Below, piece by piece: positions 32,839 to 52,247 of a stretch of DNA of 64,000 bases; positions within the stretch are counted from its first letter, which is position 1; every line of letters begins with the position of its first letter. The stretch is from positions 1-64,000 of the IMG/VR virus record IMGVR_UViG_3300023174_000145; one strand, written 5' to 3'. The DNA comes from a virus. Position numbers and translations under genes: made by a program. The notes under the pieces were generated by a model. It was not told the origin of the DNA. It worked only from the letters and a program-made list of their open reading frames with translations, and did not search any database.

Positions 32839-34070
32839 TATGTTGCACCTATAATTTCTGTAGCAGATAATATTTTTGAAGCATTTTTTTCATTATTTGC
32901 TGGCAACCATTTTCCAACAAATTGTTTATTACTGTATGTATATCTTGCAACAGCAAATCTGACATATGTTTTTTTAGCACCAAAAGAAGGAGTTATTGTC
33001 TGAGTATCACTTGTTAATTTTTCAACAGTATCTGTTGCATAATAAATACTACAATATGCTGAGTCTGGTCTTTTTTTTAATTGACTTGCACTTAATTTTG
33101 GTGGGCTTGCTGTTGGGTCAAAAACTCCATTTTCTCCTTTAAGTTTTGAACCAGAATCTGAAGTAGATGGTTTAATGCCCTTTCCAGTATCATTAAAATA
33201 ATACCAGTTTTTATTATCTTGTGAAACAAAAAAGAAATAATAATCTACACAACAATCTTCATCGTTTCTAAATTGATTTATAGTTGCTGCCTGTATTGAA
33301 TCTGGAACTTTAGAATATAAAGTACTAGATAGCCTAAATGTTGTTTTAGTTTTAGATTCAGTCGTTATTGAGTCATGATATACAGCTGGTGGATTATATT
33401 CAAAGTATGCACCTTTCCAAAAATTATTACATTTAGAATTACTTTTGTCTTTATATATATCTTTTAATGCAACAAATATTGGATAGTCCCAAAATCCCCA
33501 TTCATTATTTCTTTTTGTTACTGGTGCTAATGCTCCATAAATTCCAATATTTGGATCTAAAACTCCAAGATTAGTACGAATTATTATTTTTTGACCACTT
33601 ATTTCTCCATCAGATATATTTAAATTTAAACTGCTAAAAGATTGATTAAAATTTTCTAGTTGAGTAATGTGTTCTTTTTTTAAATCTTTATCAAATGTCA
33701 ATTCTATTGTTACTTTTAATTTAAATGGATCTGCGGTAGAATCATTTCCACCAGTTACAGTACTTGTTAAATTAGCTTTTTTTAAAGTACTAATTCCTAT
33801 AACTTTGAAAGCACTGTTTCCTTTTAAAGCATAACGTATATTTGTTTCTGTATAGTATCCTGGAGTAGTAATTTTTGGAGTTATTTGAATTTCTTTACTA
33901 ACATCTTTTGATACCCTAGAAGATGTCATATAAGAAGACATTTCTGATGGAAAATTTGGAGTTTCTATAATAAATGATTCTTTTGTGTATGGATCATCAG
34001 CTAGCGATAGCGTTACCCTATATTTTGTATTAACAAATAAATTATTACCAATCAAAGACTTGCTAGCCAT
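32838..34070 (-). CDS. Minor tail / structural protein
   Basis: 410 aa, coupled within the tail operon. Confidence 0.55.
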   Translation of the reverse strand: MASKSLIGNNLFVNTKYRVTLSLADDPYTKESFIIETPNFPSEMSSYMTSSRVSKDVSKEIQITPKITTPGYYTETNIRYALKGNSAFKVIGISTLKKANLTSTVTGGNDSTADPFKLKVTIELTFDKDLKKEHITQLENFNQSFSSLNLNISDGEISGQKIIIRTNLGVLDPNIGIYGALAPVTKRNNEWGFWDYPIFVALKDIYKDKSNSKCNNFWKGAYFEYNPPAVYHDSITTESKTKTTFRLSSTLYSKVPDSIQAATINQFRNDEDCCVDYYFFFVSQDNKNWYYFNDTGKGIKPSTSDSGSKLKGENGVFDPTASPPKLSASQLKKRPDSAYCSIYYATDTVEKLTSDTQTITPSFGAKKTYVRFAVARYTYSNKQFVGKWLPANNEKNASKILSATEIIGAT

Positions 34071-35239
34071 TATGTATCCAAATTAACTGCTAAAACATAT
34101 TCTATATCAATAATTGATCCAGAATCTTTTTCTATAGGATCTGTTAAAACTGTTCTAGACAGCAACCCCTCTGTATTGTCAATAACTTGCTTAGGTTTTA
34201 TCTTAAGACCATCTAATATTATATAGCCAGTAGAATTTGAAGATATTGATATTTTTGCTATTTGTTCCCAATCTAAATTATTATATGATGTGTTTGATTT
34301 TTGTTCTAATGAAACAACATTATATCCAGAAACAAAATTAAAAACATATGAAATAGAAACATTTGCTATGTCGGTAAATGTTAAAGTTACTGTTTTTGAT
34401 GCAGATGACCAGCCAGCAAAAACAAAGTTATCGTATGGATTTATATTTGACAAATCTAATAATTGTTCATCATAAAAAACTGTACCAGCACCAGTTATCT
34501 TTAAAGCATTATTACCAATTCTATAATCATTACTTGTGTCTGATAAAAACAATGATTTTCTTTGAGCTGGGAAAGAAGTATCTGTTACATATACCAAAGA
34601 AGGATTTATTGTTACACTACCAAGAGAAGCCGAAACTCCAGTGCCATTAATACTGGTAGATAGATTAAAAGTATTTGTTTGAGAGTTTACAACATAATAT
34701 GTTGTATTTAATAATAATCCACTTGGCATAGTTCCTGTAAGAGTAACGGCATCTCCATTAGATAATAAATGACTATTTGAAGTAAATACAGATGGACTTG
34801 CAGCACTTACTGAAGCACTAAATGTTGATGGCAATTCTTTTAATAAATCACCCTCTTCAAAATTAAAAACTGTTAATGAATCAATATTTGCAGATTCTGT
34901 TATTACATTTGAAAATACACCAACCTCATATATCTTATATCTTTTTTCATCTTTTATTCTTGCAGAATAAACTAATCCATCACTAGTACCAACATTTCCA
35001 AGAGTTGATGTAAATATTGGATATTTACCAACAGTAAAATCTAAATCATCCATACTTAAAAACGTATCTGTACCATTTGATTTAGTTGAAATTCCGATAC
35101 CTAAAGAATTTGCAAAATATTGATTTTGACCAAGTAAAGATTTTAAAATGTTTGATCTTCCTAAAACTGTTAATTTATTCTTTTGCTCTACTTCAAGTTT
35201 TCCATTTTTATATATTCTATATACTCCATACATACTCAT
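34070..35239 (-). CDS. Minor tail / baseplate protein
   Basis: N.LT..GR, I.EVG.F, PIEK.SG...DIEY motifs; inserted beta-repeat module. Confidence 0.6.
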   Translation of the reverse strand: MSMYGVYRIYKNGKLEVEQKNKLTVLGRSNILKSLLGQNQYFANSLGIGISTKSNGTDTFLSMDDLDFTVGKYPIFTSTLGNVGTSDGLVYSARIKDEKRYKIYEVGVFSNVITESANIDSLTVFNFEEGDLLKELPSTFSASVSAASPSVFTSNSHLLSNGDAVTLTGTMPSGLLLNTTYYVVNSQTNTFNLSTSINGTGVSASLGSVTINPSLVYVTDTSFPAQRKSLFLSDTSNDYRIGNNALKITGAGTVFYDEQLLDLSNINPYDNFVFAGWSSASKTVTLTFTDIANVSISYVFNFVSGYNVVSLEQKSNTSYNNLDWEQIAKISISSNSTGYIILDGLKIKPKQVIDNTEGLLSRTVLTDPIEKDSGSIIDIEYVLAVNLDT

Positions 35240-35250
35240 TATTATACCAC

Positions 35251-36318
35251 CTAAATCTCATCAAATTCTATATTTATTTCATAGTTTTGATATTCTTGTT
35301 TTAAAACATATCTAAAGTCTATAGTATTTCCAGAACTAACACCAACAGAAAACTTATAAGCAGATTTATTGGTTTCAGCGGATATTTTTCCAAAATATTT
35401 ACTCTTTCTAATAAATTTATTAGAACCAAAAATTTCTTGAAGTTCTGCTTTTAATGAACTTAAAATTTCCGCTTTATGAGATACCTCATCTTCTTCTTTA
35501 TTTGTATTCATATCATCAAAATCTGAAAGAGAAAAATCTATAGGCAAGTAGTTGCCAGATTGGTCTTTAACTTGAATCTCATAATCTGGAAGATAATCAA
35601 TGCTTTCATAATTAAAATCAGTTAATAAATCATCACCAGCCTGAATAAGACTTAATTCCATTTTTTCTATAAGTGCATCATCAATAGCTTGATATTCTAG
35701 TGAATTAAATAAAACATCATAGCTTTTAGGTAAAGATTTTATTTCTTTTGGGTATTCTTTTATTGGTTTACTAGATCCGCCAACATACGTTTTTTTTGTT
35801 TTTATAAATCCACTAACATTAGTATATGTTTTGTTTGTTGGTGGTGTTGGTGGGTTAACAGTTTTTGGCTTTTCATATTTAAGTATTGGTGGTGGTTCCA
35901 TTTGATAACTAGAAGGTTTTCCATTAATTTCCCATTTAGATGTTTCAATATTCCAATTTTGTGCAAAACCATGATCGGGATTAGTTTCATCAAAATTAAT
36001 ACCTATCCAAGTTCCTTCTGATGTTGTACCATATTGTTGCATTCCATCTTTTGAAGTCCAAGTTTGTGGTTTATAATTTGATTCAGTAAATGGCTGTATT
36101 CCTAAAGTACTTGGATCAGCATCTCTTGTAGATGGATATAATGGATCATTTCTTGTTTGTAAAATTTGTGGCATTGATAAGTCTTCTTGATACTTTGCAA
36201 TCTTTGTATGTGCTTTATCTAAATACCACTTATTGTCGGAAACATTCCAAAACAAAACTTTTCCATATTGATCTTTATGTTTTTTATTATAATCATATAT
36301 TTGAAAAAAATCTGACAT
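35251..36318 (-). CDS. Hypothetical tail-region protein
   Basis: 355 aa, Pro/Thr linker; position in the tail operon. Confidence 0.55.
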   Translation of the reverse strand: MSDFFQIYDYNKKHKDQYGKVLFWNVSDNKWYLDKAHTKIAKYQEDLSMPQILQTRNDPLYPSTRDADPSTLGIQPFTESNYKPQTWTSKDGMQQYGTTSEGTWIGINFDETNPDHGFAQNWNIETSKWEINGKPSSYQMEPPPILKYEKPKTVNPPTPPTNKTYTNVSGFIKTKKTYVGGSSKPIKEYPKEIKSLPKSYDVLFNSLEYQAIDDALIEKMELSLIQAGDDLLTDFNYESIDYLPDYEIQVKDQSGNYLPIDFSLSDFDDMNTNKEEDEVSHKAEILSSLKAELQEIFGSNKFIRKSKYFGKISAETNKSAYKFSVGVSSGNTIDFRYVLKQEYQNYEINIEFDEI

Positions 36319-36319
36319 A

Positions 36320-39300
36320 TTATATACACTCCTTAAGAGTCAAAGTCATTTCAGGTCCATTATTCTTTACAGAATATGATATACCTGTAATTGTGTATGT
36401 TGATGATTCATCATTATAATATTTATCTGAATATAATAAACCTATTTTATCTCCAAGTTTTAATAAAGGATTTGGAAAAACGCCAACACTTAATGTTTTT
36501 CTTTCTTTTGATAGATTATCAATTACCCACTTTGCCAAATGTTTTGCCTGTTCTCTATCATTAATAAACTGTCCACTAAGTTGTAATTCCTGTGTACCAT
36601 ATAATTTTCTATTAGCATTATATTTATCGTTTATATCAAGTTCATAGTTTTCCTTTTCTAAAAATTCTTTAGATTTAATTGTTCCAGGACTTCTTTCTTT
36701 TAATGGAAAACCAATAATAAATAATGGTGTTCCATTTTCTGTATCTAATTTTATTGAAGAGTTTCCAGTATTATGTACCCAAAAGGTGCCACCGTGATTT
36801 GATAAATTAACATCAGATACTTGATAGTATTTACTTGTTTCCGATAGAGATATAATTTTTGGTGTTAAACCAACGTCTTCAAATCGTATATCAAATTTTT
36901 TAACTTCTCTAGCTAATTTTCCAAAATCTTCAAAATATAAGTAGCTTCCCTTTCCATTTGTTTGTCTTCTATAATTAATTCCAGGTGGCAAGTAACATCT
37001 ATTAAAATCATTTTTTATTTCAGAGAAGTATGATATATCATCTTCGTCATCTTTTCTAGGAACAATTCCCTCTGCACCAGAATAAGCAAATAAATGTTCA
37101 AATATTGCAGATGACTGACCTCTAACAAAAAGACCTATTGTTGATTTTGTATCTGATGTTGAAGTAATTTTATTTTTACTATCCACCGCAGTCATTACAT
37201 TCTGACCTTCCCAAAAAATATCAAACTGGTTTGAACCATTAGAACGAGTTATTGAAATATCTAAGTCAAAAATTATAGCCTGTGATTTTCCATCTTTTTG
37301 TCCTTGTTGTTCTAAACCAGACCAACTTGTATTTGAAACATTTACCCAAGTTTCTGCAATTACTGTTGGAATATACTTTCCATTGTCCTGAGTTATTTTG
37401 TATAGCCTCATATTTCCAAAGTTTGCAGATGCAAGTTGATTGCCATTAATAGTTCCAACATCTTCTACTTCTAAAAAGTATCCAGTAATTCCATTCTTTT
37501 TTACACTAACGTCCCAAGACACACCAGCAATCATGCCAGAGTTTATTGGCTTGTCACCCTTACTTACATTTTTAGGAACATCATATACAAGTTTCATTCT
37601 AGTACCAAACCTATTTACAACAACTTTTGTACCATTTTTATTTTTTATTTGTTTAAAAATTCCAGTAATAATATTTTCTGATGGATCTGATGAAGGTAAT
37701 AAGTTTTTATTAGTTGAACTATATTTTCTATTTTGGGTAACTGTTCCTTTACATTTTGGACCACTAAGTTTTAAGTTTCCAGTATATCCTTGCAAAAACT
37801 TGGTTGTTCTCATAGTTTGATTATTAAAAAATGTTTCTGTTTTATTTGAAACAGTAAGATTGTTAGTTAACATATCTATATTTGCACCCACTCCATACAA
37901 CCTAACTCCAGATCTTTTCCAGTCAGGATTTTGTTCCAAGAATGACTTATGTGTATTTACACCTTTATGTTCAGAAACCTCTGTATTATTTATTCCTCTT
38001 CCATCACCAGTTACTAAAATATCTATTTTTTCTTCATCTAAAGAATTTTGTGTTTCTTCTGTTTGTATATCTAAAATTAAAGCTAAAGGCTCTAATGAGC
38101 TTCCTTGTTTCAAACTTGATTTTGTATAGTTATACTCTTCTGAACTAAATATTATTTTTGTTTTATATGAATTATATTTTGGATTACTAACCAAAAACAT
38201 AATTCCATTATATTTAATTATTTCTTGATCAATTCTTATATAACCTTTATAGGATGATGTAGCAAAAGTATGAATGTAGTTACTATCTAATTTTATCAAC
38301 ATTCTTTTTCTTATATCGTCAGTAGTATGTTCTGCTAAAAATTTAATTAACTGTTCTTTATTTTTTTTAGATTCAAAAGTTAGTAGATTATTATTGTTTA
38401 AATAATCATATATACCAGTAACTGGAATATCCTGTACTAATATTGCTGCACATAAAACATTTTCTGTTTTATCTTTTTTATTACTAGCCTCCCATAAGAT
38501 ACCAAAAGAATTTCTAAAATTTGTATCTGCTAAAGACAAAGAAAATGATGGATCTTCTAGTGCTTTTTTTACAGACTCATTTACATCGCTTTTAGTTATA
38601 AGAGCAGCACTTGGTTGTTTTGCAATGCCAATATCATTATATGCAACATTAATATCTGTAATTGGAGGTTCAAATGTTTCGTTAAAAGACGATATATTGC
38701 TTATGTATGTAATATCATCTTTTATCAAAGAGTTGTCATTTCCATATAACCAAAAATCTTTTGTTTTTTGTTTTGCAATAACTCTTTCTTTAGTCATAGC
38801 TACAAGGTTATTACTTTCATCCATATACATAGATGTTTGTGTTGAAACAGCAAGAGACTCTAAAACCTCCATAACATTTTGTTCTTTTTTTGAATAGAAA
38901 AAATCTAAAATTACATCTTCTTTATCAGCATTTTCATCTGTACCAGTTTTTTCAAAAATAAAATTGTTATATCCTATATTGTCTAAAAGAGTTAACATTG
39001 CAACAGATGTTGGTACACCAGATTTATTTGCAATAAGTAAGTCTGGGGCAGCTCTTTCTTTAAAAAATTTAAAATAATCTTGTAATGATACATTAACTGT
39101 AGAGTTATCTCCTTCATTCCATATGTCTGTATACAATGTTTTTAAAGGAAACCTATATGTTTTATTATCTACAATAACTTTTTGATAAATTTTTACTTCT
39201 ACATTTGGCTTTAATACATCGCATATAATTGAATATGTATTATTTTTACTAAATGCACCATCTGTATTAGAAATTGTTATTGTTCCTGATGTAGAGGCAA

Positions 39301-40276
39301 TAGATCCGACTGGCAGACCATATGCAGAATTAGCCATTTCAGAATCAATATTAAAATCTACCACTGAATTAGTTATGTCAGAAACTAATCTAGGACTAAT
39401 TTCAATTACCTCTAATGGAATATATGCTGAAGACATTTTTGTTGCTTTAAATCTTATACCCTTAATTTTTATTGCACCGCTTACAGAATTATTATATGCA
39501 AGAAAATCAAATACTGTTTTTTCATCTGGTTGATCAACAGCATTAATATAGGCATCCCAACTATTTGATAATGAATCATAATAAATATCTAATACGCCAT
39601 CACTTAAAAGATTTGATGATGTTTTTGTAAATATTGTTTTCCAAGTATCATCAATATAAACATCAATATCAAAATTGGTGGCATATCCTAAATGTTTTTG
39701 TGTTTTTATTGATATTTTATTAATCCATATATCATTTTTATAAATAACATAAGGTGCTGCAAAATCAATATAATTTTGAGAATTTGATGTACCAACAGAA
39801 TATCCTGCTTTTTTTCTACCAGAAGACCAATATTTAAAACTTGATTCATTTCCCATAGGATATAATCTTGGCGATGATGTATTAATATCAAAGATATTTT
39901 TTATTTCTAAGGTGGATGATTGTCCAGATATTGTTTTCTCTTTACCAATCATTGAATCTAAATAAATAGATTTAATAATTCCAGGATTTGGTCTATTTGT
40001 CTCAAATATACTATAAAGAGGAGAATGTTTTTCTCTTACAATATCTTTTACTATATGATCCGTAGAATATTTTATATCTTGGCAACCAGAATCTTTTTCA
40101 TTATAATTATTATATGATCCTATTTCTAATATTGGAGTATATGCATTGTAGTTCCATTCAACAATTATTTGATGATTAGAATCTATTGTAGAATTTGCAG
40201 CAAATTCTTTTTGAATATCTTTATATGTTTCTGGATGAGAAGTAATAAATTTATCGATAGTTTTATTAGTTAACAT
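36320..40276 (-). CDS. Large tail-tip / hub protein
   Basis: 1318 aa, two genes after the TMP; C-terminal F.NP.L.LGD.I motif typical of tail hub proteins. Confidence 0.7.
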   Translation of the reverse strand: MLTNKTIDKFITSHPETYKDIQKEFAANSTIDSNHQIIVEWNYNAYTPILEIGSYNNYNEKDSGCQDIKYSTDHIVKDIVREKHSPLYSIFETNRPNPGIIKSIYLDSMIGKEKTISGQSSTLEIKNIFDINTSSPRLYPMGNESSFKYWSSGRKKAGYSVGTSNSQNYIDFAAPYVIYKNDIWINKISIKTQKHLGYATNFDIDVYIDDTWKTIFTKTSSNLLSDGVLDIYYDSLSNSWDAYINAVDQPDEKTVFDFLAYNNSVSGAIKIKGIRFKATKMSSAYIPLEVIEISPRLVSDITNSVVDFNIDSEMANSAYGLPVGSIASTSGTITISNTDGAFSKNNTYSIICDVLKPNVEVKIYQKVIVDNKTYRFPLKTLYTDIWNEGDNSTVNVSLQDYFKFFKERAAPDLLIANKSGVPTSVAMLTLLDNIGYNNFIFEKTGTDENADKEDVILDFFYSKKEQNVMEVLESLAVSTQTSMYMDESNNLVAMTKERVIAKQKTKDFWLYGNDNSLIKDDITYISNISSFNETFEPPITDINVAYNDIGIAKQPSAALITKSDVNESVKKALEDPSFSLSLADTNFRNSFGILWEASNKKDKTENVLCAAILVQDIPVTGIYDYLNNNNLLTFESKKNKEQLIKFLAEHTTDDIRKRMLIKLDSNYIHTFATSSYKGYIRIDQEIIKYNGIMFLVSNPKYNSYKTKIIFSSEEYNYTKSSLKQGSSLEPLALILDIQTEETQNSLDEEKIDILVTGDGRGINNTEVSEHKGVNTHKSFLEQNPDWKRSGVRLYGVGANIDMLTNNLTVSNKTETFFNNQTMRTTKFLQGYTGNLKLSGPKCKGTVTQNRKYSSTNKNLLPSSDPSENIITGIFKQIKNKNGTKVVVNRFGTRMKLVYDVPKNVSKGDKPINSGMIAGVSWDVSVKKNGITGYFLEVEDVGTINGNQLASANFGNMRLYKITQDNGKYIPTVIAETWVNVSNTSWSGLEQQGQKDGKSQAIIFDLDISITRSNGSNQFDIFWEGQNVMTAVDSKNKITSTSDTKSTIGLFVRGQSSAIFEHLFAYSGAEGIVPRKDDEDDISYFSEIKNDFNRCYLPPGINYRRQTNGKGSYLYFEDFGKLAREVKKFDIRFEDVGLTPKIISLSETSKYYQVSDVNLSNHGGTFWVHNTGNSSIKLDTENGTPLFIIGFPLKERSPGTIKSKEFLEKENYELDINDKYNANRKLYGTQELQLSGQFINDREQAKHLAKWVIDNLSKERKTLSVGVFPNPLLKLGDKIGLLYSDKYYNDESSTYTITGISYSVKNNGPEMTLTLKECI

Positions 40277-40803
40277 TATACTTCCACCAAACTAAGATTT
40301 ATATCCCAAAGATCTGTATCTATGCCCCTAGTTATAATATTATATGAAAAGTTTTCAAAAAATACATTTACTATTTCTACATTTGTTTTAATTTCTGACT
40401 TTAATACTGAAGGATCATTGTCATAAACAAACAATGCCCAAAAACTTCCAGTATGATTGTTATACCAATCTAATATTTGTTGACCACCACCAAACTGATT
40501 TCTTGTATTTGAATATTCAGTTACATAGTCTTTTCTAGATGGAAGTCTTTTCCAAGAAGTAGAATATGTTTTTTTATCTGCAATATGATATGAACGCATT
40601 GTTCCATTTATCATACGTTGTCTATGTTCTATTCTTTCAAAAGCAATAGCAAGATCTGAACGATTATCATCAGATAGATATAAATAATTTGTTCCAAGAT
40701 CCCATTTTCCAGCTCTAGAACCTACACCTTCTACTGGCTTATCTTCTGTAAAAATAATTAATGATGGTCTAGAATATTTTTCTTGTAAGTATCCATATGA
40801 CAT
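40276..40803 (-). CDS. Distal tail protein-like
   Basis: Immediately after the TMP; RMINGTMRSY..ADK and W.I.LSL.EV motifs. Confidence 0.65.
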   Translation of the reverse strand: MSYGYLQEKYSRPSLIIFTEDKPVEGVGSRAGKWDLGTNYLYLSDDNRSDLAIAFERIEHRQRMINGTMRSYHIADKKTYSTSWKRLPSRKDYVTEYSNTRNQFGGGQQILDWYNNHTGSFWALFVYDNDPSVLKSEIKTNVEIVNVFFENFSYNIITRGIDTDLWDINLSLVEV

Positions 40804-43800
40804 TAACAGTAAACACCTCTTGAGTTATTACCTATTGTACCACCCATAGCCTTATTAACGTGACCCATAACCATATCCATACCTGCACCATTAAAGTTAA
40901 AGTGATAAGTTGGGGCATTTGTGTTACCTTCTGCATATCCACCGCCATTATATTGTGCAATAGATGCTATACCAGATGGAGAAATGGATGGTGTTGAAGG
41001 AATACTATATGTAGGAGAAGATGGAACTGAGGTTCGTGGCATTACTCCAACACCACCCCCACCTGCATATCTTCCAGCATTAACAGCATTCATAAATGGA
41101 ACGCCATACTTTGCTACAGAAGAAGCCTTTACTACATATTCCCCATTTGACAACATCGCTGGTATAGAATCGGAAGTTGTGCTTCCTGGACCAACCATAT
41201 GTCCACCATTAGCGGCATATTTAAACCAAGGGAAAAGTCTATGAGTTATTCTAGAACCACCATAATTTGTTACGTTTGAATAATCTTCGCCCTCACCTTT
41301 ACCTGTTAAAATATTGAATAGTGATTGAGCAGAGTCAAATTGATCCAGTTTTTCCGCTGCCTCTGGAACATATTTTTTGGCTGCTTTTCCAACAGGTTTT
41401 GCAGCATTTAATACCGACCTTACTCTATTGCTTTCAATTATTGATTTAATTTTATTAGACTCTGAAAAAGTTTTTAGTTTATTAACATCTGTAACTAAAT
41501 CTATAAGTGTTCCACTAGCATAAACAGCATTTTTTGCATCTATTGTTTTTGACAATAATCCAGCAACTCTAGATGCTTTTGACGCAATAGATGCAATTCT
41601 TCCAACCTGAGCAAATTTTGCAAGCATAGCAGCCTGACCAGCTCCTGGAACAAACATAAGGGCGGTGGTGCCTAATTCTAATAATCCACCACCAAGTGAT
41701 TTAAATCCAGCCTTAAATTCACCTTTTCTAAAATGCCTATACATACTAGTAAAATCATCAACACCCAGTAAATTATTTGCAATTCCAGAGCCAATACCCT
41801 TAATAAACTTTTTAGGATCTTTCATTGTAGATATTGCAAAATTTTCAACAGTATCTGAGATGTCAGAGACGGTGCTTCTTGCTCCATTCCATAAACGTTT
41901 AACCAATCCACCAAATGCAAAGTGTTGAGAATTTATAGAATCTAAGAAAGGTTTTCCATACTTTGATACAGATGATGCTTTAACTACATATTCTCCATCA
42001 GATAACATAGCTGGAATTGAGTCAGATGTTGCTGTTCCTGGACCTGAGATATATCCACCATCTGCCCAATATTTCCATTGTGTAACAGGAGTTTTTGATG
42101 GATCTGTTTTAAGTGCTTTTTTATTGTATGGAGATCCATCAGCATATTGCCATTTTCCACCAACTTCGTAAATTCTTGTTCCATCTTGAGCATATCCAGA
42201 TTTTGCAGTTGATGGTGGGCTTGTTTGTGGAGTTGTTGGTGGATTTGTAATTCCAGGCAAACCATTTTCATTAAGTGTTATGGCATAAGCAAAAGCTGCA
42301 ACAGCTTCTGTAACTCCAGGAGCAGGTGGTTTTTGCAAAAGACCAAATACATCCTTATAGGCTTTAGATGTTTCTGGATCAATACCCTGTGATTGAAATA
42401 TCTTTTTTACATTTGTACTTGCAGCATTTAATCTATCTACTGCATCCATCGTGTCTCCAGCCATAATAGCAACAGCATCATTAAAACCTGATTTTGCAGT
42501 GTTAAATGATTTGATTATACTTTGATCTTTAGTATTAATAGTCAATCCAGTTCCAGCAGAAATTCCTGTCTTTTCTGCTTTATCTGCAGCAGATTGTGCA
42601 GCAAGTATTGCTTTCTGCCAGCCTGGAGTACCAATAGACATACCCTGAGCTTTTTCAATCAAATCTAATGCTTGAGTTATTTGACCAACAGCTTGTGATT
42701 CTTTTTTGCGAAGCAAATCTATTTCTGCATTAATATTATCTATCTCAGCCTGATGTCTGGTATCTTCTGCTTTCTTTCTGTCATCAATAGCCTTTAATGA
42801 ATCATCAAGTTTCTTTTGTTCTGCATCGGCGGTGTCTTGAATATTTTGCATAGACAAATCTCTACCATATTGATCTGCTGCACTTGCTGCCTCTATTTGA
42901 GAACCAATAAATCCAAATACATCTCCAGATGCTATAGCCTTTAATCCAGTTAAACCAGTTTGTCTTTGCTTTGCATAAAAATCCTCTGCTTCTTTTTCTT
43001 TTTGTAATTGCTTTAAATAGTAATCGGTATTTTCTTGCAATATACCTTTTTTGTTATTAATTCTTTCTGCTTCAAGATCTAGATTTTCTAATGCCTTTTC
43101 GTGTCTTTTATCTTCAGTTTCAAGTTCTGCCTGTTTTGCCTCTATTGCAACATCAAATACTTTTTGAATACCTTCTTTTAATTGATTTAGTTGTTTTGCG
43201 GTATCTTCTAGTTGAAGGTCAACATCAGTTTCTATTTTTACAAGAGACATTCTTTTTGCTAATTCTTCTGGAATTTTTTTGCCAAGGTCTGCCTCTATTG
43301 TTCCATTTAAAATTGCTGCACTAAGGTCTTGACCCATACCATTACCTAGAGCAAGAAGTGCAGCTTTTTGTTTTGATTTATCTAGTTTAAAGAAAGCACC
43401 ATCTTTTCCAAAAAAATCAAACAGTGCGCTTCCTTCTCCAAAACCTGCATCTTTAACCATTTGTTGTAGTTGATCTGACAATTTTCCTATATCAGCATTT
43501 TTAAATTCAGAAACTATTAAATTTACTGCTTCTGTGGAAGCAGTTGGATTTTCCGCAGCCATTGCAAATGCAGATTTTAATGTTGCACCTAACTGTGATG
43601 CAATTTGAGTTTTAACTTTATTATCAATTAATACTGGTGCAATTAATGATGTAATCTGCGCTCCACCAAGATAGCCCCAAACACCTTTTGTTCCAAAAAT
43701 TCCCCTTAAGAATTTATCCTTAAGACCATTTCCAGTTGCACCAAGTGCTTCAAACATTACTCTTTGATTTTCAGCACCAGACTTCATAAGTTGGTCCCAA

Positions 43801-46800
43801 CTCTGACCATTCCATTGTGCTTTAACACCAAATTCATTAGATCTCTGTTGTAATAAAGCTGTTTGATTTTTTAATGTTAATATTTGTTGAGCCAGAGCAT
43901 CTGGTGCTGTTTTTATTGTTTTAAGTCTTTCAACTACACTAGCATAAGAATCTAAGGCTTGTCCTTGTCTTGCAATTTCTGCCGTTATTTCTCTTGCTTC
44001 TTTAGCCTTTATACCTCTTTGAATTAAATTGCTATAAACATTAACAAGCTGATTATTCTTTTCTTGCAAACTTTTTGTACTTTTTAATGTGTCAATCAAT
44101 GGACTAAAATCTGTTTTAACTGTTTTTTCAAAAGCTTTATTGTATGCACCAATGCCTTGATCTAAACCAGAAATATTTTGAGCAACTTTATTAAATTTTT
44201 CTACAGCATCTGTTGTAGATTTTAACTGAATACCTAACAATTTTGCAGTTTCTGTAGGTTCAGCAAAAGCTGCTTTTCCAGCCTGTCTTGCTTTTTCCAT
44301 TTCAGCATTATAAATTTCAATACCTTTTTGAATCCCAGTAATTGCAAGATCAATTCCCATACTAACTATAGGATTACTTAAAGCACTTGCAAGTTTGCCC
44401 ATACCAGACCCAACTCCAGATAGTCCCTTTCCAATAAATCTTTTAATAGGACTATTAACAGCTTTTCTAGTTTTAATATCGTAGATATCGGCACTCATTT
44501 CGTCACCTTTATCTTTTAAGGTTTGTCCAAAAGTACCCATACCACTATTTGCAAAGTATTTTAGTCCTTGTGTAGCAGCAGCAATTCCAGCAACCCATTT
44601 TTGTCTGCCATTTTGAACATCAGATGTGAATTGATCCAATACAAACTTCATTTGAAAACCTGATGTTGCCATCATACTGAAAGCTGCAGCAAACTTACCC
44701 ATACTTCCTGGTTGAATATCTCCCATATATACTGGTTCTGTAAAATCTGCCGATGTGCTGTCAAAGTTGTTTGCTCTAAAGTTTTTACCACGAATTAATG
44801 ATGTTCCAAATGGATGAACAATTCTCTTTCTTGCTTCATCTCCTGGACTTGTAACACCTGCTACTCTGCCATCTGGAGTAACCGCCAAAAGTTCACGGCT
44901 TGAAACAGCCATTGGATGACCACTTGCAGATGTGACCAACATATCATCAATAGTGCTTGAAAGAATCTTACCATCAGGAGATACATTAACGGTAGCACCT
45001 GTACCACTAATTCTGTCTCCACCGCCAGCAAATGATGGATAAATAATTTTTGATTTAGAAACTCCACTTGGCATAACAACACCACTTCTTGATTGTGGAG
45101 TTTTTGCATCTTCGTTATATGAAATAACTTTAACTGTTGGCAAGCCTGGTGGCAATGCTCTAGATTGAAGTGTTTCATAGAAGTCACCCTTTAGTCTTTC
45201 TTGCAAACCTGCAACTACCGCAATAGGAATACCTTTTCCATCTTTTGTATTTCTTGGAAACATTCTTGCAAGTTCAAGCATAGTCATAGCACCTTGGCGG
45301 GTAGTTGGATGAATACCCTTAGAAAGATTAGTTAACTGTTCAATTACAACATTCTTTGGTAATCCTGTTTGTGACATAACTGCATCAATAACATATGGTG
45401 CTAATAATCCACCACGACTTTGAATATCGCCTCTGCTTTTAAGTGTTTCAAGGAATGTATTATATACCTGAGATTCTTTTATTAGATTTGCTGCTTCCCA
45501 TATCTTTGTATACACTTCTCCAGTATTTGTTGTTGCAGGATTAATGTGCGCTAATACGTCTAGCATATAATACATAGCTTTTTTATCTGGATTTTCAAGA
45601 CCAGCATCAATTAATGCTTGCATAATTGCTCGTGACTCTGCACCCTTTGTAGCCCAATCAGGCAGTGATCTTAAAACAGTTTCATATTGTTTTGGTGCAG
45701 ATCCCTTTTTGTCCCATTTATGAGTTGCTTCTTTCATAGAGTCTTCTGCAAAATTATTCACTCTGCCGCCAGATTGTAGATGTTCTGGATTTAATAAATG
45801 TGAAACTCCAGTAATGTTTTTACCAGTAAGTTCATCTGTAACGCCAAAAAGTTTTGCAAGAGCAATTTCAATTATATTTGGATAAACTTTTGTTCCTGGA
45901 TTTTTAGCCCTTCTGCGCTCCGTATTATCTCTAGTTTTTGCAAGAGTGCCACCAATTCCCTCAGCCGCTGTTTGAAAAACTGTATAATCAGCTTTTTTCC
46001 TTTGATAAATTTTTTCAGGTAATGGAAAACCTTTAAGTTTTGCTGGCAAATTTTTTAAAGTATATGACCCATCTTTTTCTAGTACATATCCCAAAGCATC
46101 AAATGCTTTATCTACACCAAATGCTCCTAAGTCTGTTCTAACATCAGAAAACTCTCCTCGTTTTTTAAAGTCTTCTATTAGCGACTGAACCTTTTTTGAC
46201 ATTAAAGTTTTTTGATAAAGTTCTGGATCATTAATCATATCGTTTGGATCTGTTTTATTTAATTTGTTAGAAACAAAAGACTGTATTTCTTTAGGATTAA
46301 TTGTTGTTCCAATTTTATTAAACAATGCAGTCATTGTATTTAAAGCTTTTGGTGCATTTATATAATTATACAAATCCATTTCTTTTGCTGATGACTTAGA
46401 AAGCTCACTATTTAATGTTTTTGGTATGTCAAATCCAATAGGATAAAGCAATCTACTTGCTCCAAAACTCATATAAGGTACAGTATGTGCAAATGCTAAA
46501 TTATTAGATTTATATTCTTTTTGATACAAAGATTTATCAGCAAAATTATTTACTCTTCCACCAGATTGCAGCATCCAAGTTGGGAAACCTGCATCTATTG
46601 CCTGTTGACGCTCTGCTGCATCTGCTGCTTTCTTTTCTAATGCTTTTGCTGTAGGAGCAGATTTTGGCTTAACTGGTTCTGGTTTAATGCCAACGTGATG
46701 AGCGTGTATTTCTTTCCAATTAATTTTACTTGCTGCTGACAAATCACCAATAAGTAATTGATACATTGCTTTTTCTTCAGGTGTTAGATTTTGAAGAGCA

Positions 46801-49800
46801 CCAATAGCACCACCAGCATTTGCCTGTGCCTCAGCAATAGCATTTAAGAAACCAGCCTCATATTGCTCTGGTGTCATTGATGCTGCTATACCTGCTGTTG
46901 CTTCTGCAAACCATCTACGAGCACCACCTTTTTGCATAAGGAAATTAATTCTTGCTTGTGTAGCAACATCATACTTTTTACCACTTAATGTTCTTGGCTG
47001 TGATGCTCTATCTGAAACATATGCAGCACCTGTATCTGTAACAATGCTATCAAATAAATTATCTGCTTGAAGGTCGGCATCCCCACGAATAATTGCTGCA
47101 AGTGCTTGTTTAAAGAATGCTTCTGGTGCAATCTGTCCAGATGTTTTAGCAAATCTTGAATCAAACGGTGAACGAACACCAAACATTTGCTGACCAGTTT
47201 GTGGATGTAAGAATTTAATTAGTTCTTGTTGTGGTGTGGTCAAACCAAACATATCTTGAGTTAATTGTGTTCCTCTAGATTCAATAAGGGCGGAATCAAG
47301 TGTGTTATGACCCTTAACAATAAACTTTTGACCATTAATTTCATAAACACCATTAACTCCAGGAATAGCAGAACTAAATCCGCCCATACCACTTTGTCTT
47401 TGACCAACATCAGTTATTGGCATACCAGCAAATCTTCCAGTAGTTGCTTCTAGATGAGCAAGGGCAAGCATTTCTTCAATAGCTGCTTGTTTGTCTGCAT
47501 ATTTTTGTGGCATTAATGATTTAGATTCAAAGTTGTTTACTCTTCCACCTTTTAGATATCCAACTGGACTAAGATCTGGTATATGAGCTGGATATGGTTG
47601 TTTTAGCTGTACATAGTCGCTATTCTCTTCATCCCAAATATCATAGATTGCTTTATTAGATATTGGAGATAGACTAATTCCATCTCTACCAATATTAAAG
47701 TTTGTTATAGTTGCAGGAGACCATTTGATACCTTGATATCCTTCTTTAACTAAATATTCAAAAAATGGGGAGCCAGGACCACTATGTTCTGCTGCACTTG
47801 CTGCATCTCTAAGCCAATGATTTTTATTAAAGGATGGTCCATAATAATCTCTGTCCTGCATTGCTTCTTTTCCAGATTTTGTTCTAGAAAAAGAATTAAT
47901 AAGTTGTATTAATTGTTTACTTGGTTCGTGAAAATCTGTTGTTTCATCATATGCTTCAATATAGCCTTTTCCTCTAGCAACTTTTCTAAAAGCTTCTCTT
48001 GTTTTTGAAATAGTATATTTGAAGCCTCCTGCATAACTATCCCAGCCTTCATCGTGTGTCTTTAAGTTTGATGAAAAATATGTTCCAGGACCTTCCATTT
48101 GAGCTGACCCTCTATCATACTTTTCCATAGTTTGAATACGACTTGGATCTATGGCAAGCATTTGGTCTCCAGCGTGAACCATAAACATTTCCATAAGAGC
48201 TGCTTTCATTCCTGGACTTAACTGATTTGGATCAGTAATATTAAACATACTCATATATCTTCTTAGTATATTTAATTGTGTTTTTTCTTCTTCTGACCGA
48301 CCAACAGCATTAGGAAGCAAAATATGAAGTGCAGTATTTAAAGGATTTGATCCCCATATTTCATCATCTGGATATGGTCTTCTTTTTTCAGACCTTCCAC
48401 GACCAAAACCTTTAAAATTATGAGACTGTAACTCTGTATCTATATATTGAGAAGAAGCCTTTTTTATTTCTTCTTCTGTCCAGCCAACCTCAGCACTCTG
48501 TATTCTTCCACCATTTTGTTTAAAATTAAGAACATAAGGGAATAAATGCTTTTGCTCGTCATAGGCTTTTTGACCACCTCTGAAACTAGATGGCGGTGCC
48601 CACATTTGAGAAACAGAATCTAATACCCCAGAAGTTGTAGCTGTTGCTATTTCTCTTTCCTTTAACTGCTCTCCCATATATTCAGTGCTTTGTGCTATTT
48701 GTGATATAGGAAGCATTGATGTGCCTTTACCAAACAATCTTTCAATCATAACTGTTTGAGGCTCTACACCCATAGGAAGTTGGCTTTGAAGTTCATTCTT
48801 TACCGCCTGAACAGTTTCTTCTCTGGCTCTTCTACCACGATCTATAGCATCTTCAGTAATTGGATCGGTAGGAGATAAACCAATTCTTTTTTGTAAATCT
48901 TCTATTACAAATGGATTATTTGGTTCTCTTCTAAACATATCAACAACATAATTAAATGCATCTAGATTCTTTTGTTTTCTAAGCAAGTCTTCTTGAATAA
49001 AACTTCTACCAGAAAGAGGATTGCTAAATTGTTTTCCAACTAGCCAGTCAAGTGCGTGTTCGCTATATGATTGTGGAGAACCATTAAAGTTAATTTTTCT
49101 TCCAGCAAGACTTAAGAAATCTCCAGATTCTAGTGCTTGCAAAATAGCAAGTTGGTCTGCGTCTGGTATTTCTCCAGGAAGTCCCAAAGATGTTTTTCTT
49201 CTAAGAGTCATCGGGTCTTTAGATGGCTCAAAGTATGACATAAATTTTTGAAGTCTTTCTGGATCTTGTCTTAGATATTGAGTGCTTTGTTGCCAAGATT
49301 CTACTAATGATAATAATTCTGGTGATACTGATTTATCAGCGTAGTTATTTACTCTACCGCCAGACTGGAATATAGGAACTTCACGACCATTTATATTTTT
49401 AGTTGCTCCTGGAAGAACAGAATGAAGCATAAGCATTCTTGTTTTAAGGTCACTACCATATCCAGTAATTGGAATACTCATTCCACCAGGAAGAATAAAC
49501 TCACCTTCATTGCCCCATTGAGTTGTACCTTGAAAAAGTGACTGAACATCTATGCCACCAATATTATTTCCTTTACCAGTCCAAAGGTCGTGTATCCAAG
49601 GAATTAATTCTCCAGCATCTAGTTTTCTTTGACGAGAATCAGAAACCCTTTTATTTTTTGGATCTTGAAATGTTTTAATAAATCTTTTGTAAAATTCTGT
49701 ATCTTGAATATCACTGTATGAAGTAAACCTATCTAATCTTTGCTGATATGGTGCATTTGCCCAATTCAATCTTACATCTCCACGACCACCACGACTGGTA

Positions 49801-52247: not shown

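What the first reader, a model, noticed from the sequence alone, without database searches (positions are those of the whole stretch)
44750..50270. Tape measure protein carries a cassette array of putative host-modifying enzymes, each opened by a conserved GG linker
Seen in sequence: between the TMP core (about aa 1-650) and the TM/coiled-coil half lie about 1,800 aa divided into six 240-320 aa blocks that are dissimilar apart from shared catalytic motifs. Each block starts with a near-identical linker: FQSGGRINGYA (~50082-50114), FQSGGRVNNYAD (~49335-49370), FKQNGGRIQSAE (~48490-48525), YLKGGRVNNFE (~47526-47558), MLQSGGRVNNFAD (~46535-46574), HLQSGGRVNNFAE (~45744-45782). Related sites are FQRGG (50253-50267) and FAGGGDRISG (~45003-45032). 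Established knowledge: TMPs are ejected into the cell during infection and are often proteolytically processed, and T4 injects the ART Alt from its head. Inference: this is a modular effector-delivery polyprotein. The linkers would act as cleavage sites and/or recombination junctions for cassette exchange, delivering ARTs and a kinase before any phage gene is expressed (host takeover or anti-defence).
Basis: partly seen in the sequence, partly recalled or inferred. Interest (0 to 1): 0.95.

Follow-up and report, generated by a model that had tools for sequence, protein, structure and literature searches.

The report
Tape measure protein carrying swappable enzyme modules
A lake phage's 3,814-residue tail tape measure protein carries six inserted modules (a kinase-fold domain, two to three likely ADP-ribosyltransferases, two unknown), each opened by the same short glycine motif, and related phages gain, lose and reorder modules at that motif, which suggests that host-modifying enzymes travel in with the tail protein.

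Summary
Window 40803-52247 (minus strand) is one 3,814-aa TP901-type tape measure protein (TMP). Six GGR[VI][NQ] linkers lie at aa 715, 963, 1246, 1567, 1896 and 2160; none of 20,000 shuffles reached six. Contigs from an independent lake sample bridge all six linkers.

Related TMPs from lake metagenomes delete, insert and reorder modules at the GG.

- **Modules 1 and 2:** distant paralogs. Only Trp, Arg, S-x-S and E-x-E are conserved, which is the R-S-E ADP-ribosyltransferase signature. No profile match and no structural support was obtained (fold prediction failed, pLDDT 38).
- **Module 3:** an ART-PolyVal-like lead only.
- **Modules 5 and 6:** unknown.

Relatives carry a cytidylyltransferase or a HAD phosphatase module instead. 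The linkers differ at synonymous sites, so the peptide is what is conserved, not a DNA recombination site. Cleavage and injection were not tested. The closest known concepts are polyvalent proteins and MARTX-like arrays; I found no report of either in a TMP.

The parts
40803..52247 (-). Whole tape measure protein gene, 3,814 aa
   Evidence: Single ORF. Pfam PhageMin_Tail aa 240-436, E 7.7e-28. TIGR01760 tape_meas_TP901, E 1.4e-32. PHROG TMP families hit both ends. It sits in a tail module between two small ORFs plus a major tail protein and a minor tail protein.
50106..52247 (-). TMP core (aa 1-714): TP901-type core, hydrophobic hairpin at aa 537-590, and the first PAML motif (GG at aa 664, VPAMLEPGEYVV at aa 678-689)
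   Evidence: 86-88% identical among relatives. This is the only strongly hydrophobic stretch of the protein.
49362..50105 (-). Module 1 (aa 715-962): R-S-E ADP-ribosyltransferase-like, with R792, S843-Y-S845 and E914-G-E916
   Evidence: Motif columns are invariant across 13 diverged cassettes. Weak Pfam Scabin-like hit over the ExE region, E 0.095. No fold was obtained.
48513..49361 (-). Module 2 (aa 963-1245): second, divergent R-S-E ART-like module, with R1017, S1060-Y-S1062 and E1197-R-E1199, and a long insertion between the S and E motifs
   Evidence: Linked to module 1 through intermediate cassettes by phmmer. Same invariant columns. A homolog sits at aa 1882-2152 of P0012, downstream of that protein's kinase module.
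47550..48512 (-). Module 3 (aa 1246-1566): conserved H1358, GPGTYFSS at 1386-1393, GY-x-G at 1503-1506 and T-N-F/W at 1515-1517. Possible H-Y-type ART (lead only)
   Evidence: Absent from L003, deleted exactly at the GG. Homologs occur in 13 other giant-TMP sequences at varied positions. The nearest ESM Atlas clusters carry PF18760 ART-PolyVal at score 0.85. PF18760 itself gives no HMMER match.
46563..47549 (-). Module 4 (aa 1567-1895): atypical protein-kinase-like domain, with G-rich loop 1620-1626, K1645, E1656, D1725-x4-N1730 and D1738-T-G
45771..46562 (-). Module 5 (aa 1896-2159): unknown, with a conserved AFAH-x-VP...YP-x-GFD-x-P start
   Evidence: Homologs at about 24% identity in L003, plus hits in P0007 and P0005. 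No Pfam or PHROG match. Weak ESM lead to LPD38, score 0.85 with low recognition. PF18857 gives no match.
45027..45770 (-). Module 6 (aa 2160-2407): unknown helical-looking module with two conserved His (AHIN at 2233-2236, G-x-HP-x-T at 2311-2316). It is the last module in the four relatives that reach the end of the array
   Evidence: 47-65% identical in L003, P0003, P0015 and P0007. Distant homologs sit just upstream of the kinase module in P0037, P0025 and P0019.
44750..45032 (-). End of the array: FAGGGDRISG (aa 2406-2415), a small conserved segment, and a degenerate linker remnant F-R-A-N-N-F-D-S-T-S (about aa 2490-2499)
   Evidence: 75% identical to L003. P0002 has a further GG linker (QNGGKVSSAE) at this point and so a seventh module. 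The remnant was found as DNA repeat D19, 94% similar to the linker at aa 1567.
40806..44749 (-). C-terminal part of the TMP: Gly-rich and charged, helix-like stretches, then two more PAML motifs (IPAMLSDGEYVV at aa 3411-3422, IPAMLSNGEYVV at aa 3695-3706)
   Evidence: Read from the translation. PHROG TMP C-terminal matches. Mosaic 21-95% identity to L003.

Best explanation
This is a siphovirus-type tape measure protein that doubles as a polyvalent effector carrier. Six independently folding modules are inserted between the conserved N-terminal core (with its membrane hairpin and first PAML motif) and the C-terminal helical part. The modules are two R-S-E ADP-ribosyltransferase-like paralogs, one possible H-Y-type ART, one CtkA/HipA/PI4K-like kinase and two of unknown function. 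Each module begins at a short junction peptide, [FLMY]-x-[QK]-x-GG-R-[VI]-N-N-[FY]-[AE]. This peptide is a shortened form of the GG...PAML motif that bounds modules in a much larger family of giant TMPs. Because the junctions mark domain boundaries, in-frame gains, losses and reshufflings that happen there survive, and related lake phages carry different sets.

Shown here: the anatomy, the junction motif, module exchange at the junction, the kinase fold, and conservation of the catalytic residues.

Inferred: TMPs leave the tail first and span the envelope, so the modules probably enter the host with the TMP, most likely threaded unfolded through the tail tube and refolding at or in the cytoplasm, where ATP and NAD+ are available. 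There they would modify host proteins before any phage gene is expressed (takeover or counter-defence). Whether the junctions are also cut is open; I put it at about 30%.
For: - **TMP identity and tail-module context:**
- **Linkers:** six copies, far beyond chance, and found only in this gene.
- **Independent assemblies** bridge all linkers.
- **Module exchange at the GG:** L003 lacks module 3, and its junction reads LNFKQMGG|RINNYESKSLMPE, which is the end of module 2 joined to the start of module 4. L004 has a different, unrecognised module and a third ART-like module there. P0003 has a different order of modules. P0002 has a seventh module. P0012 has the kinase upstream of the ART.
- **Other enzyme modules in the same slots:** a cytidylyltransferase in L003 (PHROG 3041, E 8e-30) and a HAD phosphatase in P0146 (Pfam, E 1e-9).
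- **Kinase fold and catalytic residues:**
- **R / S-x-S / E-x-E** are nearly the only conserved columns in 13 cassettes that share about 20% identity.
- **The linker is predicted disordered:** pLDDT 37 for the first 10 residues of the module 4 model.
- **Synonymous variation in the linkers** points to selection on the peptide.
- **Precedents for virion-delivered enzymes:** T4 Alt and polyvalent proteins (PMC5512222).
Against: - No profile or structural evidence supports the ART assignment. Pfam gives at best E 0.095. PF03496 and PF18760 give no match. hhalign against T4 ModA/ModB gives probability 1.6% (P 0.03), covering only the ExE stretch. AlphaFold of modules 1-3 failed at pLDDT 38.
- Modules 5 and 6 show no enzyme features.
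- Three copies of folded 30-kDa domains cannot fit a tail-tube lumen about 4 nm wide (general knowledge), so delivery requires unfolding or another arrangement that has not been shown.
- Nothing here shows that the protein is in the virion uncut, that it is ejected, or that any module is active.
- The C-terminal half of the TMP is as divergent between relatives as the modules (21-95%). Fast module evolution is therefore not specific evidence of an arms race.
Confidence: 0.58

Rival explanations
1. The modules act at the envelope or membrane during penetration, not as cytoplasmic takeover effectors. The kinase-like module sits right after the membrane hairpin in most distant TMPs, and several of its structural neighbours are lipid kinases. 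It could modify a membrane lipid or a channel or receptor protein to open or stabilise the DNA conduit. This would extend the known class of TMPs with cell-wall-acting domains.
For: In most of the roughly 140 distant TMPs the kinase module lies at aa 720-1020, directly after the hairpin and the first PAML motif. Structural neighbours include MavQ, LepB, PI4KIIalpha and VPS34. Distant giant TMPs of this family also carry OmpA, LysM, CHAP and NlpC/P60 domains, which act on the envelope.
Against: ATP and NAD+ are cytoplasmic, so the kinase and ART chemistry needs cytoplasmic exposure anyway. R-S-E ARTs, a cytidylyltransferase and HAD phosphatases are not typical penetration enzymes. In this phage the kinase is the fourth module, about 1,000 residues from the hairpin.
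Confidence: 0.15
2. The modules work in the producing cell or in virion assembly, for example by modifying phage or host proteins late in infection or while the TMP is bound by its chaperones. They are removed by proteolysis at the GG junctions before or during tail assembly and so are never injected.
For: TMPs of lambda and T5 are processed during assembly (general knowledge). The repeated junction peptide could be a protease site. Removal would solve the problem of fitting globular domains into the tail tube.
Against: No protease domain was recognised in the TMP or among the neighbouring ORFs that were scanned. Late-acting enzymes have no obvious reason to be fused inside the ruler protein, and the fusion is kept in more than 140 sequence clusters.
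Confidence: 0.12
3. The modules are structural spacers that lengthen the tail or fill the tube. The enzyme-like motifs are relics, and the linkers are simple hinges.
For: TMP length sets tail length. Modules 5 and 6 have no enzyme features. No Pfam enzyme family reaches threshold on any module of this window.
Against: Catalytic Lys, Glu, D-x4-N and D-x-G are invariant in kinase modules at 25-35% identity. R, S-x-S and E-x-E are almost the only conserved columns in the ART-like family. This is the pattern expected of active enzymes, not of spacers. An alpha/beta kinase fold is a poor ruler element.
Confidence: 0.1

Closest known systems
Polyvalent proteins of phages and conjugative elements (Iyer, Burroughs, Anand, de Souza, Aravind 2017, PMC5512222)
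   Same: One polypeptide carrying several unrelated enzymatic domains (ARTs, kinases, nucleotide-metabolism enzymes). It is encoded among virion genes and predicted to enter the host with the DNA. Domain architectures are mosaic between relatives.
   Different: Those proteins are described as tied to portal or MuF head proteins, N4-type virion RNA polymerase or conjugation systems. The paper never mentions a tape measure protein (0 occurrences of 'tape'). [quoted passage not shown] No polyvalent-protein Pfam family matches by HMMER. No conserved junction peptide was found in the passages of that paper that I read.
T4 Alt (virion-packaged ADP-ribosyltransferase)
   Same: An R-S-E type ART carried in the virion and delivered with the DNA to modify host RNA polymerase and other proteins (PMC5512222).
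   Different: Alt is a separate head-packaged protein, not part of the tail ruler. Sequence similarity to the T4 paralogs ModA and ModB is limited to the ExE stretch (hhalign P 0.03, probability 1.6%).
TMPs with embedded enzymatic domains (mycobacteriophage TM4 Rpf-like motif, T5 Pb2, staphylococcal-phage TMP lysins); from general knowledge
   Same: Extra functional domains are carried inside a tape measure protein and used on ejection.
   Different: The known cases are one or two peptidoglycan-acting domains. Here there is a six-module array with kinase-like and ART-like chemistry that needs cytoplasmic cofactors, and the modules are exchanged between relatives.
MARTX toxins (multi-effector arrays released by an internal cysteine protease); from general knowledge
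   Same: A tandem array of unrelated effector domains in one giant protein. The set of domains varies between strains by recombination, and the domains are separated by short conserved sites.
   Different: No protease domain was found here and cleavage was not tested. Delivery would be through a phage tail, not a repeat-mediated pore. The target is a bacterium.
Polymorphic toxins (CdiA VENN, Rhs DPxGL junctions) and TMP-related CIS effectors such as Sle1 (PMC13277306)
   Same: A conserved junction motif precedes swappable functional domains. In Sle1-type proteins a TMP-like scaffold carries variable functional modules.
   Different: Those systems have one C-terminal variable domain, with orphan cassettes and immunity genes nearby. 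Here there is an internal tandem array, and no orphan cassettes occur elsewhere in the 74-kb genome.
CtkA / HipA / CotH / PI3-PI4-kinase-like atypical kinases
   Different: 10-15% sequence identity and no Pfam or PDB sequence match. It forms its own family, found here almost only inside giant TMPs, with a conserved helical C-terminal part.

Membership tests
Phage tail tape measure protein (TP901 type) | Profile match to TMP core families | tested here: met
   PF10145, E 7.7e-28; TIGR01760, E 1.4e-32; PHROG 10030, E 2e-107.
Phage tail tape measure protein (TP901 type) | Position in the tail module: after the major tail protein and two small chaperone-position ORFs, before the distal and minor tail proteins | tested here: met
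   PHROG scan of neighbours: major tail / Ig-domain protein at 53018-53716, small ORFs at 52250-52911, minor tail protein at 36320-40276.
R-S-E ADP-ribosyltransferases (C3 / VIP2 / Alt type), modules 1 and 2 | Arg, S-x-S and [EQ]-x-E motifs in this order and conserved across homologs | tested here: met
   R in 13/13, S in 12/13, S in 11/13, E in 10/13 and E in 13/13 cassettes. These are almost the only conserved columns outside the linker.
R-S-E ADP-ribosyltransferases (C3 / VIP2 / Alt type), modules 1 and 2 | Significant profile match to a curated ART family | tested here: not met
   Best is Scabin-like, E 0.095, 13 bits against a cut-off of 27. PF03496 gives no match. A PDB profile search found nothing. 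hhalign to T4 ModA/ModB gives probability 1.6%.
R-S-E ADP-ribosyltransferases (C3 / VIP2 / Alt type), modules 1 and 2 | ART fold (split beta-sandwich with an NAD+ cleft) | tested here: inconclusive
   AlphaFold2 of modules 1-3 gave mean pLDDT 38.4. The model is unusable and no fold search was run on it.
H-Y-[EDQ] ARTs / ART-PolyVal (PF18760), module 3 | Profile match to PF18760 | tested here: not met
   No match in the genome at E up to 10. None in hmmscan of module 3 or its homologs.
H-Y-[EDQ] ARTs / ART-PolyVal (PF18760), module 3 | Conserved His, then G-x-G-x-Y-F-[AS], then an acidic or amide residue on a later strand | tested here: inconclusive
   His and GPG-x-Y-[FST]-[SA] are conserved in 11 of 12 homologs. 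The third position could be the [ND] of T-[ND]-W but is unproven. The ESM Atlas lead of 0.85 to ART-PolyVal clusters is a lead only.
Protein-kinase-like superfamily (CtkA / HipA / PI3-4K-like), module 4 | Bilobal kinase fold | tested here: met
Protein-kinase-like superfamily (CtkA / HipA / PI3-4K-like), module 4 | Catalytic Lys, helix-C Glu, D-x4-N loop and D-x-G metal site | tested here: met
   K1645, E1656, D1725...N1730 and D1738-T-G are present. The equivalent columns are invariant in 13 distant TMPs and in alignments A2 and A6.
Protein-kinase-like superfamily (CtkA / HipA / PI3-4K-like), module 4 | Phosphotransfer activity | not testable with these tools
   Needs an ATP-dependent assay.
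Polyvalent proteins (Iyer et al. 2017) | Two or more domains of disparate biochemical activity in one polypeptide of a phage or conjugative element, encoded with virion or transfer genes | tested here: met
   A kinase-fold module and ART-signature modules lie in one ORF inside the tail module. Relatives add cytidylyltransferase and HAD modules.
Polyvalent proteins (Iyer et al. 2017) | Delivered into the recipient cell with the DNA | not testable with these tools
   Inferred only from the known fate of TMPs.
MARTX-like autoprocessing effector arrays | Internal protease domain and cleavage between effector domains | tested here: inconclusive
   No peptidase family was found on the TMP. Modules 5 and 6 are unassigned. 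Cleavage cannot be tested here.
Polymorphic-toxin-type cassette systems | Orphan cassettes or immunity genes near the main locus | tested here: not met
   tblastn of all modules and a six-frame linker scan of the 74,408-bp record found nothing outside the TMP.

The most novel reading that the evidence does not exclude
The tail-tube lumen of a large, uncultured group of freshwater siphoviruses works as a one-shot secretion channel for an unfolded multi-effector polyprotein. The TMP threads kinase, ART, nucleotidyltransferase and phosphatase modules into the host ahead of the DNA. The GG / PAML junction peptides are the processing or release sites, or the chaperone-docking sites, that make the array modular. 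This would be a phage counterpart of MARTX toxins and type III effectors and a general, overlooked route of pre-transcriptional host takeover.
Probability: 0.25. Interest if true: 0.9.

Novelty: new variant of a known kind. Interest (0 to 1): 0.74.

Why it matters
Tape measure proteins are treated as rulers and channel formers, occasionally carrying a cell-wall hydrolase. This gene, and the roughly 145 sequence clusters of giant TMPs that share its kinase module, suggest that the ruler can also be a delivery vehicle for a changeable set of host-modifying enzymes.

That raises three concrete, testable questions:
- How do 30-kDa alpha/beta domains travel inside a 4-nm tube?
- Does gaining a module lengthen the tail?
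- What do a virion-borne kinase and ARTs hit in the first seconds of infection, for example NAD+- or ATP-dependent defence systems?

It also gives a genuine case of domain-level mosaicism in TMPs. A recent survey saw such a signal but could not confirm any case (PMC10684548). Finally, it supplies a simple junction motif with which TMP cargo could be catalogued across metagenomes. None of these modules has a homolog in PHROGs, and the kinase module has none in 50,697 GenBank phage records, so this is uncharted protein space.

Tried and rejected
**Searches that found nothing**
- blastn of the region against GenBank phages: no match.
- tblastn of the kinase module against the same phages: no match.
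- phmmer of modules 1-6 against PDB sequences: none.
- Profile searches of the PDB with A2 and A4: only chance-level hits.
- Pfam and PHROGs on each window module: nothing above threshold.
- PF18760, PF03496 and PF18857 against the phage genome: no match.
- The search for homologous proteins: modules 1+2 in the 292-930 aa range gave none; module 3 gave one fragment.
- Genome-contig scan with the core profile: no prophage relatives.
- Literature searches for TMP plus ADP-ribosyl or kinase domain, and for the PAML peptide: no report of such arrays.

- hhalign of the ART-like family against T4 ModA/ModB aligned only the ExE stretch (P 0.03, probability 1.6%). This is not evidence of membership.
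- AlphaFold2 of modules 1-3 together failed (pLDDT 38.4), and both fold jobs were then spent. Modules 5 and 6 were never folded.
The metagenomic relatives known only as proteins therefore could not be placed on contigs, and no host was assigned.

**Weak or discounted observations**
- The IMG/VR scan for the back-translated linker found only this phage group plus one lone match with no long ORF, taken as chance.
- MAFFT alignment A3 of modules 1 and 2 misaligned the motifs and was not used for inference.
- In run X2, one contig joins 45702 to 49335, skipping 3,632 nt from just after the linker at aa 963 to just inside module 6. Only 30 letters lie on one side, the skip is not a multiple of three, and the likeness threshold was 85. 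It may come from a relative's similar linker and is not counted.
- A strict junction regex lies near the kinase-module end in 41 of 118 distant TMPs, against roughly 20 expected. This is only a modest enrichment.

**Readings rejected**
- The linkers as DNA-level recombination sites, because of synonymous variation.
- An assembly chimera, because of independent contigs.
Full report
**1. What is there**

Window 40803-52247 (minus strand) is a single 3,814-codon ORF. It is a tape measure protein.
- Pfam PhageMin_Tail matches aa 240-436 (E 7.7e-28).
- NCBIfam TIGR01760 tape_meas_TP901 matches with E 1.4e-32.
- PHROG TMP families match both the N-terminal 650 residues and the C-terminal 400.
- The neighbours form a siphovirus-type tail module: a major tail / Ig-domain protein, two small ORFs in the chaperone position, then the TMP, a 175-aa ORF and a 1,318-aa minor tail protein.

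The window belongs to a 74,408-bp linear IMG/VR record, estimated 67% complete. The DNA recurs in lake and freshwater metagenomes from several studies.

**2.

This divides aa 715-2407 into blocks of 248, 283, 321, 329, 264 and 248 residues.
- In 20,000 shuffles of the protein the motif occurred 0.014 times on average and never six times.
- It occurs in no other frame of the whole genome.
- The DNA repeat finder returns the six linkers as a top-ranked repeat family, D2.
- Contigs from an independent lake sample (X2) bridge all six linkers. Contigs identical to the window from another study (X4) bridge four of them.

The array is real DNA, not an assembly chimera.

**3. Modules are exchanged at the linker**

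IMG/VR and JGI contigs (L001-L012) carry TMPs whose first 712 residues are 86-88% identical to this one. An exhaustive HMMER search gave further relatives, P0002-P0015. I split them all at the linkers and clustered the pieces. The architectures, with A = ART-like, D = module 3, K = kinase, 5 = module 5, 6 = module 6, are:

| Protein | Architecture |
|---|---|
| Window | A-A-D-K-5-6 |
| P0002 (95% identical) | the same plus a seventh linker and module |
| L003 / P0004 | A-A-K-G-5-6 |
| P0003 | A-A-K-E-6 |
| P0015 | A-A-E-6 |
| L004 | A-A-H-A... |
| P0005 | A-D-A... |

In L003 / P0004, module 3 is missing and G is a cytidylyltransferase-like module (PHROG 3041, E 8e-30; HxGH motif).

The L003 junction reads ...LNFKQMGG|RINNYESKSLMPE... 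The left side is the end of module 2 and the right side is the start of module 4, so the breakpoint lies at the GG. The more distant P0012 has the kinase, a HAD-like stretch and a module 2 homolog in that order. P0146 has a module 3 homolog followed by a HAD acid phosphatase (Pfam, E 1e-9).

**4. What the modules are**

*Module 4* is the clearest.
- With a 15-sequence alignment, AlphaFold2 gave pLDDT 85.5 and pTM 0.82.
- Foldseek's best PDB matches are the H. pylori kinase CtkA (E 5.2e-4, probability 1.00), then HipA/HipT, LepB and IRAK4.
- The Gly-rich loop, K1645, E1656, D1725-x4-N1730 and D1738-T-G are present. The equivalent columns are invariant in 13 TMPs that are only 25-35% identical.

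This module is the most widespread element. Of 161 significant hits in 1.84 billion representative proteins, about 145 are to module 4. Nearly all lie in 2,000-4,500-aa proteins, usually at aa 720-1020, directly after the hairpin and the first PAML motif. Sources name several of these proteins 'TP901 family phage tail tape measure protein'. No GenBank phage has it.

*Modules 1 and 2* are distant paralogs, joined through intermediate cassettes by phmmer. In a 13-cassette alignment at about 20% identity, the conserved columns outside the linker are few:
- a Trp;
- R792 / R1017 (13 of 13);
- S843-x-S845 / S1060-x-S1062 (12 and 11 of 13);
- E914-x-E916 / E1197-x-E1199 (10 and 13 of 13);
- a few glycines.

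This is the R-S-E ART signature in canonical order and context (h-x-R-[GAK]-[TM]; [FLQ]-x-S-[FY]-[ST]; [EQ]-x-E-h-h-h). It is the only evidence for the assignment. Pfam gives at best Scabin-like, E 0.095, over the ExE stretch. PF03496 gives nothing. PDB profiles give nothing. hhalign against T4 ModA/ModB aligns only the ExE stretch (probability 1.6%, P 0.03). The joint AlphaFold run failed (pLDDT 38.4). I put the ART assignment at about 0.75-0.8.

*Module 3* has homologs in 13 other giant-TMP sequences at varied positions. They share a conserved His, GPG-x-Y-[FST]-[SA], GY-x-G and T-[ND]-W. The nearest ESM Atlas clusters carry ART-PolyVal (score 0.85, a lead only), but PF18760 does not match.

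*Module 5* has only a weak lead to LPD38, which HMMER does not confirm.

*Module 6* is unassigned. It is the last module in the four relatives that reach the end of the array, and distant homologs sit next to the kinase. It therefore looks like a conserved partner rather than a swappable cargo.

**5. What the linker is**

At the DNA level the six copies differ at synonymous positions. The longest identical run is about 14 nt, and copies are 65-83% identical to the repeat finder's reference copies. The peptide is what is conserved. A DNA recombination hotspot is unlikely, although microhomology plus selection for in-frame, domain-respecting products would still place the surviving junctions there.

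The linker resembles the first residues of a longer motif present three times in this protein (aa 664, 3397, 3681): [FWY]-x-x-GG-x-[VIM]-x-G-P-G-...-D-x-[IV]-P-A-M-L-x-x-G-E-Y-V-V. The same motif flanks modules in the distant TMPs. Module 3 and kinase homologs elsewhere end in Y-A-x-G-G-[ILM]-[IV]-x-G-[YP]. The GG junction is therefore a general domain boundary of this TMP superfamily, shortened in this phage group.

The first ten residues of the module 4 model are disordered. Whether the junction is a hinge, a chaperone or tube contact, or a cleavage site cannot be decided here.

**6. Mechanism**

TMPs are ejected first and form or line the channel through the envelope (established for lambda, T5 and TP901-1; general knowledge). 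Kinase and ART chemistry needs ATP and NAD+, which are cytoplasmic. The most economical reading is that the array is cargo carried in by the TMP, analogous to T4 Alt and to the polyvalent proteins of Iyer et al. (PMC5512222).

One open problem is that three copies of folded 30-kDa domains do not fit a 4-nm lumen. The modules must either travel unfolded or be arranged in an unknown way. As an all-helical ruler, 3,814 aa would give a tail of about 570 nm, or about 320 nm without the array.

The rivals are action at the membrane (several structural neighbours are lipid kinases), action in the producer cell with removal before assembly, and a role as inert spacers. All three are listed with their tests under rival explanations.

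**7. Novelty**

- A survey of phage protein mosaicism saw a signal in TMPs but could confirm no genuine case (PMC10684548).
- TMP-related CIS effectors with swappable C-terminal domains were described in 2026 (PMC13277306).
- I found no report of an ART or kinase array in a phage TMP.

I class this as a new variant of known kinds: polyvalent or injected effectors, and TMPs with embedded domains. It also includes a new, widespread TMP-borne kinase family.

They agree with the motif positions I found, but they are not independent evidence.

Noticed in passing
L003:14511-15098 (aa 1580-1775 of its TMP): In the slot after the kinase module, the relative's TMP carries a cytidylyltransferase-like nucleotidyltransferase with a PPHAGHG (HxGH) motif (PHROG 3041, E 8e-30; Pfam CTP_transf_like, E 0.004). 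Its preceding linker is degenerate (WMLQGGNKN).
   Followed up: partly
P0146 aa 421-501; P0012 aa 1642-1775; 2 of the 13 members of A5: HAD-family phosphatase modules occur inside giant TMPs next to module 3-like or kinase modules (Acid_phosphat_B, E 1e-9 and 3.5e-16; HAD_PNKP, E 2.5e-4).
   Followed up: partly
Alignment A5 (13 distant giant TMPs): Other members of this TMP superfamily carry OmpA, LysM, CHAP, NlpC/P60, a primase zinc finger and RuvA_C domains. The cargo repertoire is therefore broad and includes envelope-acting domains.
   Followed up: no
window 44761-44790 (aa about 2490-2499): A degenerate, GG-less linker remnant (F-R-A-N-N-F-D-S-T-S). Its DNA is 94% similar over 17 nt to the linker at aa 1567. 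It bounds a small conserved segment after FAGGGDRISG.
   Followed up: partly
window 41130-41165, 41982-42017 and 50181-50216: Three copies of the GG...[IV]PAML-x-x-GEYVV motif. I found no Pfam family or paper describing it. It is repeated up to five times in distant TMPs and often flanks inserted modules.
   Followed up: partly
window 30001-40000: G+C drops to 0.27-0.30, against about 0.35 elsewhere, over the large ORFs downstream of the TMP (29896-40276, including the 1,318-aa minor tail protein). This may be a recently exchanged host-recognition module.
   Followed up: no
run X8 (freshwater metatranscriptome): An RNA run holds about a tenth of the sampled words of the module region.
   Followed up: no
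window 55393-56637: A 414-aa ORF whose C-terminal part matches a head-tail adaptor PHROG (E 1e-6). It has the same size in all relatives. Its N-terminal 200 residues are unassigned.
   Followed up: no
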